The notes beneath the pieces are model-generated. The model searched no databases, was not told where the DNA came from, and was given only the letters and a program-made list of their open reading frames with translations. 27,428 nt of DNA. Source: a virus. Taxonomy: Duplodnaviria > Heunggongvirae > Uroviricota > Caudoviricetes. This document shows positions 9,157 to 12,204 of the stretch, in pieces. Made by a program: the position numbers and the translations under genes. Positions within the stretch are counted from its first letter, which is position 1. Each line of letters starts with the position of its first letter. The stretch lies in IMG/VR virus record IMGVR_UViG_2802429253_000015; one strand, 5' to 3'.

Positions 9157-9372
9157 ATGTCAAATAAAATGACTGGTTTAGTAAAATGGTTTAACGCTGA
9201 TAAAGGTTTTGGCTTTATTTCTCCTGTTGATGGTAGTAAAGATGTGTTTGTGCATTTTTCTGCGATTCAGAATGATAATTATCGAACCTTATTTGAAGGT
9301 CAAAAGGTTACCTTCTCTGTAGAGAGTGGTGCTAAAGGTCCTGCAGCAGCAAATGTCATCATTAATGATTAA
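9157..9372 (+). CDS. cspB: CspA-family cold-shock protein paralog, CspB/CspI-like (71 aa)
   Basis: Translation [38 protein letters not shown]... carries the canonical RNP1/RNP2 motifs (KGFGFI, VFVHF). Divergent from the cspF-like gene across a ~300-bp intergenic region, as in Qin. Confidence 0.85.
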
Positions 9373-9735: not shown

Positions 9736-9906
9736 TCAGGCTACAGCTTTAAGATTTGTCTGGAATACTTTGTTGCAATGAGGGCAGATCAAAAGGGCAC
9801 CTTTTTGTACTCTTGAAAAACTGTGTTCTGACTCTTGGGTGCAGTTTGGGCAGGAACATTTAACGAGATAATTACGGCGTGATTTTGAGTCTTTACGTTC
9901 TGACAT
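9736..9906 (-). CDS. Small zinc-ribbon protein (56 aa; CxxC...CxxC), hypothetical
   Basis: MSERKDSKSRRNYLVKCSCPNCTQESEHSFSRVQKGALLICPHCNKVF... has two CxxC pairs. The start is taken at the internal ATG (9906) rather than the longer ORF in the track. Confidence 0.45.
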   Translation of the reverse strand: MSERKDSKSRRNYLVKCSCPNCTQESEHSFSRVQKGALLICPHCNKVFQTNLKAVA

Positions 9907-10125
9907 AGGCTTTTCCTGTATAAATGGCCGTATACAGTACACTAAATATGAAAACATTTCTCTTATTATTAATTAATATATGATTTTCTTTCAAAATAAT
10001 TAACCACATTTTTAATGTGTATGTTTTTTTAGCGCCGTTGAGAACAACGTGTGCTGTAAAAACTACCCCGTAGACTCCGATATTTTCAAACATATTGCAC
10101 CATCCGTGTACATCGGGGTGAGGAT

Positions 10126-10341
10126 ATGAAATCAATGGATAAGTTAACAACAGGTGTTGCGTATGGCACATCGGCGGGTAATGCTGGTTTCTGGGCATTG
10201 CAGTTACTCGATAAAGTAACTCCGTCACAGTGGGCTGCAATCGGTGTGCTGGGTAGCCTGGTTTTTGGCCTGCTGACGTATCTGACAAATCTTTATTTCA
10301 AGATTAAAGAAGACAGGCGTAAGGCCGCGAGAGGAGAGTAA
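10126..10341 (+). CDS. S: Class II holin of phage-21 S21 (pinholin) type with dual-start motif, 71 aa
   Basis: [55 protein letters not shown]... shows two transmembrane segments and the two start codons M1 (antiholin, with extra Lys) and M4 (holin). GGTGAGGA ribosome-binding site. Confidence 0.85.
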
Positions 10342-10345
10342 TCCA

Positions 10346-10897
10346 ATGACTCAAGACTATGAACTGGTTGTGAAAGGAGTCCGTAATTTTGAGCATAAAG
10401 TTACGGTAACTTTAGCCTTACAGGACAAAGAACGCTTTGACGGTGAGATTTTTGAGCTGGATATCACTATGGATCGTGTTGAAGGTGCTGCACTGGAGTT
10501 TTATGAGGCAGCAGCCAGAATGAGAATCAGACAGGTATTCCTGGATGTTGCTGCCGGGTTATGTGAAGGGGATGAGCAGTCGCCGGAAAAGCGCCCCATA
10601 ATTTTAGAGGCGCAGAATGTGTGGATAACCTACAAAGGAAAGCTACCGGGAAGAATTACTGGTTCTCTGAAGACGCCACCGACGGCATTGCGGTCAGAAA
10701 AAGATGATATTGAATCGCTCATTGAAAAACTGGAGGGCAGCGTCGCTGATCTGAATAAAAAATTGTCGGTGCTTATTCCTTCTGAAGATGAAAAAAAACG
10801 CCGCGATGAGCAGTTTGCGGCGTTTTACGATTATTGCATTGAAGTTACTCGCAGGAATTTTGTGAAGATTTTTGAGGAGGGTAAATCTCTTCAGTAA
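10346..10897 (+). CDS. Hypothetical protein (183 aa) inserted between holin and endolysin; N-terminal part resembles the YdfR/DUF1327 family
   Basis: Starts 5 nt after the holin stop. Same position as ydfR in Qin-like prophages but clearly longer. The 3' end overlaps a convergent ORF, so the C-terminal extent is uncertain. Confidence 0.45.
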   Translation: MTQDYELVVKGVRNFEHKVTVTLALQDKERFDGEIFELDITMDRVEGAALEFYEAAARMRIRQVFLDVAAGLCEGDEQSPEKRPIILEAQNVWITYKGKLPGRITGSLKTPPTALRSEKDDIESLIEKLEGSVADLNKKLSVLIPSEDEKKRRDEQFAAFYDYCIEVTRRNFVKIFEEGKSLQ

Positions 10898-11096
10898 GCT
10901 TAATGGCGGACGCTGCAATTAATTCAGGAAGGTCCGCAAGGTCATCTGTCAGTGGATATGATGAAAAATCGGCGGCAGTTCTGTTAAGAAGCGCTTTAAC
11001 TAATTCCTTTTCCTTCTCCGGCAACAAGTTGATTAGAGCTACGACTGCTTGCCTGAGTGCGATAAAAGTTTGTTTTGGTAGATTTGTGTAATCCAT
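10845..11096 (-). CDS. Hypothetical protein (83 aa), convergent with and overlapping the preceding gene
   Basis: AGAGGTG Shine-Dalgarno 4 nt upstream of ATG 11096 on the minus strand; acidic sequence with no recognised family. Confidence 0.35.
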   Translation of the reverse strand: MDYTNLPKQTFIALRQAVVALINLLPEKEKELVKALLNRTAADFSSYPLTDDLADLPELIAASAIKLTEEIYPPQKSSQNSCE

Positions 11097-11209
11097 AGTC
11101 ACCTCTGTGTTTATCAGATTGACATCCTCCTCCCGCCAGTGCCCATCACTGGCGAGGTAAGATTTAACATATCCGGGGATTTGAAGCCGATAAATCCTGA
11201 TAAATATCC

Positions 11210-11743
11210 ATGAACGTAAAAATCAGATACAGCCTGTCGGCTGCTGTTCTGGCTCTGATTGCCGCCAGTGCTCCTGCCCCTGACATTCTCGATCAGTTTC
11301 TGGATGAAAAAGAGGGGAATCACACCACTGCATACCGCGATGGCTCCGGCATATGGACCATCTGTCGGGGAGCAACGATGGTGGACGGTAAACCTGTTAT
11401 TCCGGGAATGAAACTGTCGAAGGAAAAATGCGCCCAGGTTAACGCCATTGAGCGGGATAAGGCGCTGGCATGGGTGGAGCGCAATATAAAAGTTCCACTG
11501 ACCGAGCCACAGAAAGCCGGTATCGCGTCATTCTGTCCCTATAACATTGGCCCCGGTAAGTGTTTTCCGTCGACGTTTTATAAGCGGCTGAATGCCGGTG
11601 ATCGTAAAGGCGCATGCGAGGCGATTCGCTGGTGGATAAAGGACGGTGGACGTGATTGCCGCATTCGTTCAAATAATTGTTACGGTCAGGTTATTCGTCG
11701 TGACCAGGAAAGCGTATTAGCCTGTTGGGGGATAGAGCAGTGA
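11210..11743 (+). CDS. rrrD: SAR endolysin (T4-lysozyme-like glycoside hydrolase family 24), RrrD/R21-type, 177 aa
   Basis: N-terminal signal-anchor-release segment ([16 protein letters not shown]) followed by the lysozyme core ...[22 protein letters not shown]...; closely matches my recollection of RrrD. Pairs functionally with the pinholin. Confidence 0.9.
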
Positions 11744-12204
11744 GCAGAGTTGCCGCGATTATTTATGCTCTGGCTATCTGCATCATCGTCTGCCTGTCAT
11801 GGGCTGTTAATCATTACCGTGATAACGCCATCGCCTACAAAGAACAGCGTGATAAAAAAGTCAGTGAGCTGAAGCAGGTGACCGCCAACATTACTGACAT
11901 GCAGCAGCGCCAGCGTGCTGCTGATGCACTCGATGCTAAATACACGAAGGAGTTAGCTGATGCGAAAGCTGAAAATGATGCTCTGCGTGATGATGTTGCC
12001 GCTGGTCGTCGTCGGTTGCACATCAAAGCAGTCTGTCAGTCAGTGCGTGAAGCCACCACCGCCTCCGGCGTGGATAATGCAGCCTCCCCCCGACTGGCAG
12101 ACACCGCTGAACGGGATTATTTCACCCTCAGAGAGCGGCTGATATTGATGCAAAAACAACTGGAGGGGGCACAGCTATATATTAGCGAGCAATGCCTCAG
12201 ATAA
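11740..12204 (+). CDS. Rz: Rz i-spanin (inner-membrane spanin subunit), 154 aa, GTG start
   Basis: GTG overlaps the endolysin stop (GTGA); N-terminal transmembrane helix then coiled-coil-like ...[28 protein letters not shown]... Confidence 0.85.
11960..12142 (+). CDS. Rz1: Rz1 o-spanin lipoprotein embedded in the +1 frame of Rz, 60 aa
   Basis: Lipobox LVVVGC followed by a proline-rich mature region ([15 protein letters not shown]), entirely inside Rz; the classic embedded spanin architecture. Confidence 0.75.

What the first reader, a model, noticed from the sequence alone, without database searches (positions are those of the whole stretch)
10346..11209. Unexplained insert between pinholin and SAR endolysin with convergent overlapping ORFs, a perfect hairpin and an endolysin lacking a Shine-Dalgarno
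In phage 21 and DLP12-type cassettes the endolysin follows the holin directly, and Qin carries only the small ydfR there. Here about 0.85 kb separates them. It holds a 183-aa ORF whose N-terminus looks YdfR/DUF1327-like but with an unrelated C-terminal half, and a convergent 83-aa ORF on the opposite strand with a good ribosome-binding site, overlapping the first by about 50 nt. A perfect 8-bp hairpin CGCCAGTG-cccat-CACTGGCG (11134-11154) with no T-run follows, then tandem GATAAAT repeats. The endolysin ATG (11210) has no recognisable Shine-Dalgarno. This looks like a cargo insertion into the lysis cassette. An antisense-oriented gene here could influence lysis timing or act as a defence or superinfection-exclusion gene. 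How the endolysin is translated without a ribosome-binding site is itself a question.
Basis: partly seen in the sequence, partly recalled or inferred. Interest (0 to 1): 0.65.

Follow-up and report, generated by a model that had tools for sequence, protein, structure and literature searches.

The report
Backward accessory gene inside phage lysis cassette
Between the hole-forming and wall-degrading lysis genes of this E. coli prophage sits a small uncharacterised gene on the opposite strand, apparently with its own promoter-like and terminator-like signals; this is an ordinary kind of phage add-on ("moron") found in hundreds of strains, not a one-off insertion.

Summary
The segment is not unique to this window. 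The same holin, YdfR-family gene, backward small gene and endolysin arrangement occurs in about 300 of 5426 complete E. coli genomes (CFT073, APEC O1, S88, E. coli B) and in deposited phage genomes (2H10, PhiR63_1, PhiR5_1, PhiR12).

The conserved unit is the minus-strand gene (83 aa here, usually 86 to 93 aa; phrog_2572). It is a small acidic protein predicted to form three helices, under purifying selection (dN/dS about 0.3). It travels with three signals:
- an upstream box, ATTTATCAGGNYTTATC, which gives TTTATC-17-TATGTT
- a strong Shine-Dalgarno sequence
- a GC hairpin plus U-run just past its stop, embedded in the 3' end of the converging YdfR-family gene

K-12 Qin differs from a relative carrying this unit by one clean 773-nt indel. 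The "tandem GATAAAT repeats" are this box read on the other strand. The Shine-Dalgarno-less endolysin start is shared by all five other RrrQ-type endolysin leaders examined, with or without the insert, so the insert does not cause it.

No homology, fold or defence-system match gives the small protein a function. Best reading: a backward-facing moron, probably expressed from the prophage. Modest interest.

The parts
10126..10341 (+). Pinholin (S21/EssQ-type class II holin), 71 aa
   Evidence: PF04971, E 4.4e-34. 96% nt identity to Qin essQ.
10346..10897 (+). YdfR/DUF1327-family ORF, 183 aa. Codons 1-69 resemble Qin ydfR. Codons 70-112 belong to the common 114-116-aa YdfR type. Codons 113-183 are an extension that runs through the small gene's terminator and 3' end.
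   Evidence: - Family matches: PF07041 over aa 1-112, E 5e-41; phrog_2091 1-183/183, E 2e-108.
- The ORF stays open through a +28-codon indel (PhiR5_1) and a -14-codon indel (PhiR12_1).
- dN/dS of the extension does not discriminate between frames.
- PGAP labels it a pseudogene 'missing C-terminus'.
10552..11199 (.). Segment that replaces 92 nt of the 3' end of Qin ydfR
   Evidence: In blastn against K-12 Qin, homology runs 10062-10551 (96%) and 11200-11743 (88%).
10791..10826 (-). Terminator-like hairpin for the small gene. GC stem at 10799-10804 / 10817-10822 with a 12-nt loop. On the minus strand it is followed by U8 (10798-10791). On the plus strand it is A8-stem-U4, so it could act in both directions.
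   Evidence: - Inverted repeat I2. Folds: -14.6 kcal/mol (minus) and -18.7 kcal/mol (plus), z -4.3 and -4.9.
- It lies 19 nt past the small ORF stop.
- The stems and the flanking A/T runs are identical in 5 E. coli and phage variants; the only differences are one loop base and two bases in the upstream A-run.
- Kept in L015 (same stem) and in L022 with a changed, still complementary stem, ACGCCACC / GGTGGCGT.
- One arm is absent in the 297-aa variant that lacks the small gene.
10845..11096 (-). Small backward gene, 83 aa (usually 86-93 aa). Acidic (pI 4.7), predicted three helices, family phrog_2572. Stop codon at 10845-10847.
   Evidence: - phrog_2572, E 2e-48, full length.
- Several in-frame indels among alleles.
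- dN/dS 0.29-0.30 between lineages, the lowest of the six frames, with no stops.
- AlphaFold2 predicts helices at 8-24, 27-45 and 53-71, pLDDT 67.8.
10845..10897 (.). 53-nt convergent overlap of the two ORFs' 3' ends
   Evidence: The overlap is 53 nt in the E. coli variants and 59 nt in L015 and L022.
11100..11105 (-). Shine-Dalgarno GAGGTG of the small gene, 4 nt before its ATG
   Evidence: Read directly from the sequence. Anti-SD binding energy -7.1 kcal/mol.
11134..11154 (-). Perfect 8-bp hairpin (CGCCAGTG-N5-CACTGGCG). Under the promoter assignment below, it sits at the 5' end of the small gene's leader.
   Evidence: -. The leader folds at -29.4 kcal/mol, z -4.35.
- A 7-bp core is kept in PhiR5/PhiR12 despite divergent flanks.
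- No sequence-conserved counterpart in L015 or L022.
11166..11205 (-). Promoter-like element of the small gene. Box ATTTATCAGGATTTATC at 11205-11189; -35 TTTATC at 11194-11189; 17-nt spacer; -10 TATGTT at 11171-11166.
   Evidence: - The box occurs once per locus in 29 of 33 fetched loci, in the 28 that carry the small gene upstream of it (the 29th, L010, lacks the gene and has the box in front of the endolysin), including L012-L016 where no endolysin is adjacent.
- Chance expectation in the window is 0.01.
- Hexamers and the 17-nt spacing are kept while the spacer sequence changes.
- It is below the threshold of the consensus scan.
11210..11743 (+). SAR-type endolysin (RrrQ-like), 177 aa, with an AU-rich leader that has no Shine-Dalgarno
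   Evidence: - PF00959, E 2.6e-24. 88% nt identity to rrrQ.
- Anti-SD energy +0.6 kcal/mol. Positions -25 to +15 are 67.5% A+U.
- Unpaired in the centroid fold.

Best explanation
The segment is a backward-facing moron: a self-contained small gene placed between a YdfR-family gene and the SAR endolysin of a Qin-like lysis cassette.

Shown:
- A minus-strand ORF (83 aa here, 86-93 aa elsewhere) encodes a conserved, acidic, helical protein under purifying selection.
- It always carries a strong Shine-Dalgarno sequence.
- About 90-110 nt upstream it always carries the conserved box ATTTATCAGGNYTTATC, which gives TTTATC-17-TATGTT.
- A GC hairpin follows its stop, with U8 after it in this window.
- Because the unit faces the late operon, the late-strand YdfR-family ORF reads through the terminator and the last 17 codons of the small gene before reaching a stop. 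That produces the 183-aa 'hybrid' protein and the 53-nt overlap.
- Qin's ydfR-rrrQ ATGA junction corresponds to an L022-type cassette lacking one clean 773-nt block.

Inferred:
- The box is a weak to moderate sigma-70 promoter that starts transcription near 11159, so the 8-bp hairpin would be a 5'-terminal stem-loop on the small mRNA.
- The unit is transcribed independently of Q-dependent late transcription, most likely in the lysogen.
- Late transcription runs over it and silences it during lytic growth.
- The protein acts by binding another protein, to the lysogen's or phage's advantage. The target is unknown.

The endolysin start is a separate matter. It is an AU-rich, unstructured initiation region without a Shine-Dalgarno, common to RrrQ-type endolysins. 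It is translationally coupled to ydfR only in the Qin deletion form. Here it presumably initiates on its own by the known S1-dependent route for AU-rich leaders (inference).
For: Distribution:
- The same four-gene order occurs in 303 complete E. coli genomes and in CFT073, RM9088 and ATCC 11303.
- It occurs in STEC-like prophages; the P0005 allele is listed in 1585 index blocks.
- It occurs in the deposited phage genomes 2H10, PhiR63_1, PhiR5_1 and PhiR12_x.

Coding status of the small ORF:
- Full-length phrog_2572 match.
- In-frame indels of 2-4 codons among alleles.
- Distant homologues at 39-56% identity from an exhaustive HMM search.
- dN/dS 0.29-0.30, the lowest of six frames, with no stops.
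- Anti-SD energy -7.1 kcal/mol.

The unit moves as a block:
- In L022 it sits in the same holin / DUF1327 / endolysin slot, but the overlapping DUF1327 C-terminus is unrelated.
- In L012-L016, whose terminase region matches Salmonella Fels-1, it lies between Rz and the terminase genes, facing an unrelated 73-aa ORF. Only the 13 hairpin-encoded residues match.

Signals:
- The upstream box occurs once per locus in 29 of 33 loci. Chance expectation is 0.01. The 17-nt spacing is kept while the spacer sequence changes.
- The terminator hairpin is present in all three lineages, with a complementary stem change in L022.
- One arm is missing in the 297-aa variant that lacks the small gene.

Indel structure.

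Endolysin leader: no Shine-Dalgarno in any variant.
Against: - No expression data of any kind were available.
- The promoter assignment scores 3/6 and 4/6 against consensus and was not called by the consensus scan.
- The terminator loop is 12 nt, which is long for an intrinsic terminator. The U-run is weak in L015 and L022.
- The antisense 'shadow' frame shows nearly the same dN/dS in one comparison, 0.33 against 0.29.
- The 5' hairpin has no significant counterpart in L015 or L022 (z -1.3 and -1.0).
- The structural model has low confidence (pLDDT 67.8). No fold or family match gives a function.
- The direction of the indel (insertion or deletion) is not settled.
Confidence: 0.6

Rival explanations
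1. The unit is a lysis-control or insulation device. Convergent transcription from the small gene, together with the two-way hairpin inside the YdfR-family gene, would stop non-antiterminated read-through from reaching the SAR endolysin in the lysogen. Such read-through could come from the cold-shock gene upstream of the holin. Alternatively, the antisense RNA could pair with the late mRNA and alter the holin-to-endolysin ratio and so lysis timing. On this view the encoded protein is secondary.
For: - On the plus strand the hairpin is A8-stem-U4, -18.7 kcal/mol, so it could terminate in both directions.
- A cspB-like gene lies on the plus strand just upstream of the holin.
- PMC13232886 reports that the Qin ydfR cluster is up-regulated under cold stress.
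- The unit sits exactly between holin and endolysin in E. coli.
Against: - The protein is under purifying selection and is conserved down to 39% identity, so it matters in itself.
- In L012-L016 the same unit lies after Rz, not between holin and endolysin.
- Most cassettes of this type do without it.
- The predicted small-gene transcript does not cover the endolysin start region.
- Q-modified polymerase is expected to ignore the hairpin (established knowledge of lambdoid Q antitermination).
Confidence: 0.15
2. The small protein is a prophage-encoded defence, superinfection-exclusion or anti-defence factor. This is a specific functional version of the moron reading.
For: - It has the moron-like architecture and orientation of lambda bor and DLP12 borD (plus established knowledge).
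- It is a small acidic helical protein (pI 4.7).
- A profile search gives a very weak match to AcrIIC4 (E 0.22).
- There is repeat-wise similarity to TPR_10 units of a CHAT protein, which hints at a protein-binding role.
Against: - No PADLOC hit.
- The AcrIIC4 match is not significant.
- Pfam TPR models do not hit the family.
- Fold searches are non-specific.
- There is no signal peptide or membrane segment of the kind typical of many exclusion proteins (read from the sequence).
Confidence: 0.15
3. The minus-strand ORF is not a real gene. On this view it is a shadow of plus-strand coding sequence, such as the 62-aa ORF at 10903-11091, or the region is a decaying remnant.
For: - The plus-strand ORF 10903-11091 starts 5 nt after the 183-aa ORF's stop.
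- Antisense ORFs are open over the same stretch in L015 and L022 too, though still counts 3-5 stops in the best antisense frame over the aligned region.
- That best antisense (shadow) frame has dN/dS 0.33-0.51.
Against: - The plus-strand ORF has no Shine-Dalgarno (-0.6 kcal/mol).
- Its start and stop positions and start codons are not conserved between lineages. One search counts 3-5 stops in the best antisense frame (the one most likely to correspond to this ORF) over the aligned region.
- It has no PHROG hit.
- The minus-strand ORF has conserved ends, a strong Shine-Dalgarno in all lineages, and the lowest dN/dS.
Confidence: 0.05

Closest known systems
K-12 Qin lysis cassette essQ-ydfR-rrrQ-rzpQ
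   Same: - The pinholin, the first 69 codons of ydfR and the RrrQ-type SAR endolysin match at 96% and 88% nt identity.
- The gene order is the same.
- The endolysin leader ATAAATATC-ATG lacks a Shine-Dalgarno in both.
   Different: - Qin ydfR is 103 aa and its stop overlaps the rrrQ start (ATGA), so the two can be translationally coupled.
- Here 648 nt replace the last 92 nt of ydfR. The YdfR-family ORF ends 313 nt before the endolysin, and a backward gene lies in between.
- Qin equals the L022-type cassette minus one 773-nt block.
Lambda bor / DLP12 borD and similar backward-facing morons of lambdoid late regions
   Same: A small gene on the strand opposite the late operon, placed in or next to the lysis cassette. 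borD lies on the opposite strand right after rzpD. Established knowledge: such genes have their own promoter and are expressed from the repressed prophage.
   Different: - Bor is an outer-membrane lipoprotein with a known phenotype (serum resistance). This protein has no signal peptide, no lipobox and no known function.
- This unit sits between holin and endolysin, and its terminator and 3' end overlap a late gene.
Phage morons in the sense of Hendrix and colleagues (HK97/HK022 comparisons)
   Same: An extra gene flanked by its own promoter-like and terminator-like signals. It is present in some genomes and cleanly absent from otherwise collinear ones.
   Different: - Classical morons lie between two genes. 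This one is embedded so that a neighbouring late ORF is extended through its terminator.
- Expression from the prophage was not tested.
YdfR / DUF1327 family (PF07041)
   Same: The N-terminal part of the 183-aa ORF is a family member (E 5e-41). PMC13232886 reports that residues 1-72 of Qin YdfR bind the catalytic half of RNase E and that the protein co-purifies with RNA.
   Different: The C-terminal parts are mosaic: 103, 116, 169, 183, 211, 243 and 297 aa forms exist. RNase E binding has not been tested for this variant.
Convergent, 3'-overlapping type I toxin-antitoxin pairs (e.g. B. subtilis txpA/RatA, bsrG/SR4)
   Same: Two convergent transcription units whose 3' ends overlap, with a shared two-way terminator region (resemblance recalled from established knowledge).
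   Different: In those pairs a small hydrophobic toxin is matched with a non-coding RNA. Here both partners are hydrophilic proteins. The late-strand partner is not conserved as a protein. No toxin-like feature is present.

Membership tests
Phage moron (autonomous accessory gene) | Extra gene present in some genomes and cleanly absent from collinear relatives | tested here: met
   - Qin against L022: one 773-nt indel with no other rearrangement.
- L010: 51 nt in place of window 10682-11182.
- L009: no small gene.
Phage moron (autonomous accessory gene) | Own promoter | tested here: inconclusive
   A conserved TTTATC-17-TATGTT element within the box ATTTATCAGGNYTTATC is found in 29 of 33 loci. 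It matches only 7 of 12 consensus positions and was not called by the scan. No transcript data.
Phage moron (autonomous accessory gene) | Own terminator | tested here: met
   Met at the sequence level only. A GC stem followed by U8 lies 19 nt after the stop. It is kept in three lineages with a complementary stem change. The loop is 12 nt, and the U-run is weaker in L015 and L022.
Phage moron (autonomous accessory gene) | Expression from the repressed prophage | not testable with these tools
   Needs strand-specific RNA-seq or reporter fusions.
YdfR / DUF1327 (PF07041), for the 183-aa ORF | Pfam model match above the gathering score | tested here: met
   139.2 bits against a cut-off of 25, aa 1-112.
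YdfR / DUF1327 (PF07041), for the 183-aa ORF | Binding of the RNase E catalytic domain, as reported for Qin YdfR residues 1-72 | not testable with these tools
   Only sequence identity of the N-terminal 69 codons to Qin ydfR is shown. The binding result comes from PMC13232886.
phrog_2572 (small backward ORF) | Full-length profile match | tested here: met
   E 2.3e-48, residues 1-83 on profile positions 1-86 of 86. The L015 homologue scores E 1.4e-28.
DUF1823 (label used in the PhiR phage records) | Pfam model match above the gathering score | tested here: not met
   Best score 12.7 bits against a cut-off of 25. Best E among 10 members is 0.024.
Known anti-phage defence systems (PADLOC-DB 2.0) | Match to any defence-protein model | tested here: not met
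   No hit at E up to 1 for either ORF.
TPR repeat proteins | Match to a Pfam TPR model | tested here: not met
   No TPR family hit at E up to 1 in 10 members. The only link is pairwise similarity of residues 22-72 to TPR_10 units of one CHAT protein.
Pinholin / SAR-endolysin lysis cassette (phage 21 type) | Class II S21-type holin plus a lysozyme with an N-terminal, uncharged, Ala/Gly/Leu-rich signal-anchor segment, followed by Rz/Rz1 | tested here: met
   - PF04971, PF00959 and PF03245 hits.
- The endolysin N-terminus reads [24 protein letters not shown].
- An Rz1-like lipoprotein ORF at 11960-12142 is embedded in Rz.
- Release and activation behaviour was not tested.

The most novel reading that the evidence does not exclude
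The backward unit is a functional part of lysis or immunity control rather than passive cargo. Two versions are not excluded.
1. Its promoter physically overlaps the endolysin's translation start, and its two-way terminator sits between holin and endolysin. Together they could gate SAR-endolysin expression in lysogens, for example against cold-induced read-through, or set lysis timing.
2. Its small acidic, TPR-like helical protein could be a new exclusion or anti-defence factor, or a partner of the RNase E-binding YdfR-family protein.
Probability: 0.15. Interest if true: 0.6.

Novelty: new member of a known kind. Interest (0 to 1): 0.3.

Why it matters
The module is common in pathogenic and laboratory E. 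coli (CFT073, APEC O1, S88, STEC-like prophages, E. coli B), yet it is annotated only as 'hypothetical protein' next to a 'pseudogene'.

This work does four things:
- It defines the real unit: gene, promoter-like box and embedded terminator.
- It corrects the pseudogene call for the 183-aa ORF.
- It shows that Qin's coupled ydfR-rrrQ junction corresponds to the loss or gain of one block.
- It removes the apparent puzzle of the endolysin start, because the lack of a Shine-Dalgarno is shared by every RrrQ-type leader examined.

If the small protein turns out to have a lysogen phenotype, it would add one more family to the list of prophage accessory genes. The overlap of its promoter with the endolysin start would then be a neat case of two expression programmes sharing the same DNA. 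As it stands, this is a tidy example of phage mosaicism rather than a surprise.

Tried and rejected
1. An upstream mini-ORF coupled to the endolysin start. The frame ending in the TGA at 11211-11213 is open from 11082, with possible GTG (11139) and TTG (11181) starts. PhiR5/PhiR12 carry a 1-nt insertion and change TTG to TTC there. It is not conserved, so it was rejected.

2. An endolysin promoter in the gap. A perfect TTGACA lies at 11119-11124, but no acceptable -10 follows at 16-18 nt. The scan found none.

3. A conserved 'C-terminal domain' paired with the small protein, an idea held midway through the work. BLASTP shows that only the 13 hairpin-encoded residues are shared with the L015 partner, and nothing with the L022 C-terminus. 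Rejected; the overlap is a by-product of the arrangement.

4. Function by homology. Pfam, NCBIfam, PADLOC and PDB profile searches gave nothing significant.

6. Rfam. Only a sub-threshold GcvB match (18 bits against 42), treated as noise.

7. Literature. Nothing on the small protein accessions or on this module.

8. dN/dS for the 113-166 extension of the 183-aa ORF does not separate the frames.

9. One genome-contig scan with a degenerate N-terminal pattern returned only one E. coli locus, so the taxonomic spread beyond Escherichia rests on the IMG/VR loci.
Full report
**1. What is at the coordinates**

The window carries a Qin-like lambdoid lysis cassette.
- Pinholin: 10126-10341 (PF04971, E 4e-34).
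- 183-aa ORF: 10346-10897, matching DUF1327/YdfR over residues 1-112 (E 5e-41).
- Minus-strand ORF: 10845-11096, 83 aa from its ATG.
- RrrQ-type endolysin: 11210-11743 (PF00959).
- Rz: PF03245, with an embedded Rz1-like lipoprotein ORF.

The two central ORFs converge and overlap by 53 nt. The 8-bp inverted repeat at 11134-11154 and a second one at 10795-10826 were both found by the repeat search, and both fold stably.

The endolysin's upstream 20 nt have no complementarity to the anti-Shine-Dalgarno sequence: +0.6 kcal/mol, against -7.5 for the holin, -9.5 for the ydfR-like gene and -7.1 for the small ORF. The 8-bp hairpin alone is not statistically remarkable, because 8% of shuffles contain one.

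**2. Relation to Qin and to other cassettes**

Against K-12 Qin (annotation), homology runs 10062-10551 (96%) and 11200-11743 (88%). So 648 nt here replace the last 92 nt of Qin ydfR.

In Qin the ydfR stop overlaps the rrrQ start (ATGA). In DLP12 the endolysin start overlaps the holin stop by one base.

The interval between holin and endolysin is a mosaic hot spot. DUF1327 genes of 103, 116, 169, 183, 211, 243 and 297 aa occupy it.
- Residues 70-112 of the window's ORF belong to the common 114-116-aa type, which is found in about 2400 complete genomes.
- The full arrangement with the backward gene occurs in 283-303 of 5426 complete E. coli genomes. These include CFT073, APEC O1, S88, RM9088 and E. 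coli B ATCC 11303.
- It occurs in STEC-like prophages with nanS-p upstream.
- It occurs in eight deposited phage records, of which six name a laboratory E. coli strain (E. coli C, K-12 or ECOR13) as host.

I infer that these are lysis-competent phages, so the arrangement is compatible with normal lysis.

PGAP annotates the 183-aa ORF as a pseudogene 'missing C-terminus' and the backward ORF as a hypothetical protein.

**3. Are both ORFs coding?**

Small ORF:
- It matches phrog_2572 full length.
- Its alleles differ by in-frame indels of 2-4 codons. The window's allele lacks three codons (ADL).
- A word-indexed search found only E. coli relatives. The exhaustive HMM search added homologues at 56% and 39% identity.
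- Between the three lineages dN/dS is 0.29-0.30, the lowest of all six frames, with no stops.
- The plus-strand ORF at 10903-11091 is a shadow of it. It has no Shine-Dalgarno, its ends are not conserved, and it has no PHROG hit.

183-aa ORF:
- It matches phrog_2091 end to end.
- It stays open through a +28-codon indel and a -14-codon indel in PhiR5_1 and PhiR12_1.
- Substitution patterns in residues 113-166 do not single out its frame. Translation of the extension is likely, but its constraint is weak.

**4. The conserved unit**

Loci holding the distant homologues were decisive.
- In L022 the order is again holin, DUF1327 gene (243 aa), backward small ORF, endolysin, with a 59-nt overlap. The DUF1327 protein shares only its N-terminal 74 residues with the window's protein.
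- In L012-L016, whose terminase region matches Salmonella phage Fels-1, the small ORF lies between Rz and the terminase genes. It converges on an unrelated 73-aa ORF. That ORF shares only 13 residues with the window's ORF, EKKRRDEQFAAFY against EQKRRDENEAALY.

Those 13 residues are encoded by the hairpin at 10795-10826. So what is conserved is the small gene plus flanking nucleic-acid signals, not a protein partner. Three signals travel with it.
- Hairpin after the stop. In the window it is ACGCCGC-N12-GCGGCGT followed by U8. L015 has the same stem. L022 has ACGCCACC-N8-GGTGGCGT, changed on both sides and still complementary. The 297-aa variant without the small gene lacks one arm.
- Strong Shine-Dalgarno sequence.
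- Upstream box ATTTATCAGGNYTTATC. It is present exactly once in 29 of 33 fetched loci, with a chance expectation of 0.01 in the window. It contains TTTATC-17-TATGTT (CTTATC-17-TATTGT in L015). The spacing is kept while the spacer sequence changes.

The box also survives in front of the endolysin in L010, which has lost or never had the small gene.

**5. Indel structure**

Qin equals the L022-type cassette minus one clean 773-nt block. That block holds the DUF1327 extension, the small gene, its leader and most of the box. The Qin junction reads CGTCCTCATC|ATAAATATC. The last four codons of Qin ydfR, and its ATGA overlap with rrrQ, are made from the remaining part of the box.

L010 has 51 nt in place of window 10682-11182. 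L009 is homologous only up to 10836, 9 nt short of the small ORF's stop.

I cannot tell insertion from deletion with certainty. The box also occurs with the small gene where no endolysin is adjacent, and this favours the view that the Qin and L010 forms are deletion derivatives.

**6. The endolysin start**

All RrrQ-type leaders examined lack a Shine-Dalgarno: Qin +1.2, L010 +0.6, L009 +0.4, L005 and L022 +0.6 kcal/mol. This holds whether a gene ends at the start codon (Qin), 36 nt upstream (L009), 63 nt upstream (L010) or 313 nt upstream (this window).

The region from -25 to +15 is 67.5% A+U and is unpaired in the centroid fold. From established knowledge, AU-rich unstructured leaders can recruit 30S subunits through ribosomal protein S1 without a Shine-Dalgarno. 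I infer that this is the route here.

A coupled upstream mini-ORF was considered and rejected, because it is not conserved.

**7. Function of the small protein**

It is acidic (pI 4.7) and predicted to form three helices, with low confidence (pLDDT 62.7 and 67.8).
- There is no significant match in Pfam, NCBIfam, PADLOC or PDB sequences. The 'DUF1823' label used in some phage records fails the Pfam threshold.
- Fold searches are non-specific.
- The only lead is that residues 22-72 resemble single TPR_10-type repeat units of a CHAT-domain protein, at 30-38% identity to each of eight repeats. This suggests a helical protein-binding module but does not establish homology.
- The only functional study of the neighbouring family reports that residues 1-72 of Qin YdfR bind the catalytic half of RNase E and that the protein co-purifies with RNA (PMC13232886). 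The window's ORF shares those codons at 96% nt identity.

**8. Verdict**

The best-supported reading is a backward-facing moron, analogous in layout to lambda bor and DLP12 borD. It has its own promoter-like box, a 5' leader hairpin and a terminator embedded in the 3' end of the converging YdfR-family gene.

Expression from the prophage and silencing by late read-through are inferred, not shown.

The uniqueness, the link to the endolysin's missing Shine-Dalgarno, and the defence or lysis-timing suggestions are not supported.

This is a new, uncharacterised member of a known kind of element, of modest interest.

Noticed in passing
window 10346-10897; L001 4247-4582: PGAP annotates the YdfR-family gene in CFT073, RM9088, ATCC 11303 and others as a pseudogene ('incomplete; missing C-terminus', 336 nt). 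The ORF is in fact intact at 183 aa, matches phrog_2091 full length, and stays open through in-frame indels. This looks like an annotation artefact caused by comparison with the shorter YdfR type.
   Followed up: yes
window 10396-10414: A perfect 9-bp palindrome, TAAAGTTAC-G-GTAACTTTA, lies inside the N-terminal coding part of the ydfR-like gene, which is also the part shared with Qin ydfR. Its purpose is unknown.
   Followed up: no
window 11064 region (small ORF codons 12-14): The window's allele of the small gene lacks 9 nt (codons for A-D-L) that are present in CFT073, 2H10, PhiR5_1 and PhiR12_1. Only 4 complete genomes match the segment at 99% or better.
   Followed up: partly
window 9157-9372 (+) and 9736-9957 (-): A cspB-like cold-shock gene and a backward ynfU-like zinc-binding ORF lie between the antiterminator region and the holin, as in Qin and CFT073. 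This region therefore carries other accessory genes. Read-through from the cold-shock gene into the lysis genes is a possibility raised by PMC13232886.
   Followed up: no
window 11743/11744 onward: Homology to the CFT073/Qin cassette stops at the end of the endolysin. The best hits cover query positions 1-1644 only. The window's Rz is a PF03245 'Phage_lysis' protein, whereas Qin and CFT073 have the DUF2514 RzpQ. This is another mosaic joint exactly at a gene boundary.
   Followed up: partly
L008 1919-3132; L028 3459-4672; L002 6423-7651: IS3-family elements have inserted into or next to the module in several strains. In L008 one lies just after the 183-aa ORF and removes the small gene. In L028 one lies inside the DUF1327 gene.
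   Followed up: no
P0018 (975-aa CHAT/TPR_10 protein) against small ORF residues 22-72: The exhaustive search scored this unrelated repeat protein at E 5e-10 because each of its 45-residue TPR_10 units resembles the small protein at 30-38% identity. This could be remote homology or just a helical-repeat likeness.
   Followed up: partly
L015 4224-4445 (-): A 73-aa ORF with no PHROG match overlaps the Rz stop codon by 8 nt and runs through the small gene's terminator and 3' end. It is unclear whether it is a real late gene or a read-through by-product.
   Followed up: partly
window 10790-10967 (-): A sub-threshold Rfam match to GcvB (18.1 bits against a gathering score of 42, E 0.39) covers the small gene's 3' end and terminator. 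Treated as noise.
   Followed up: no
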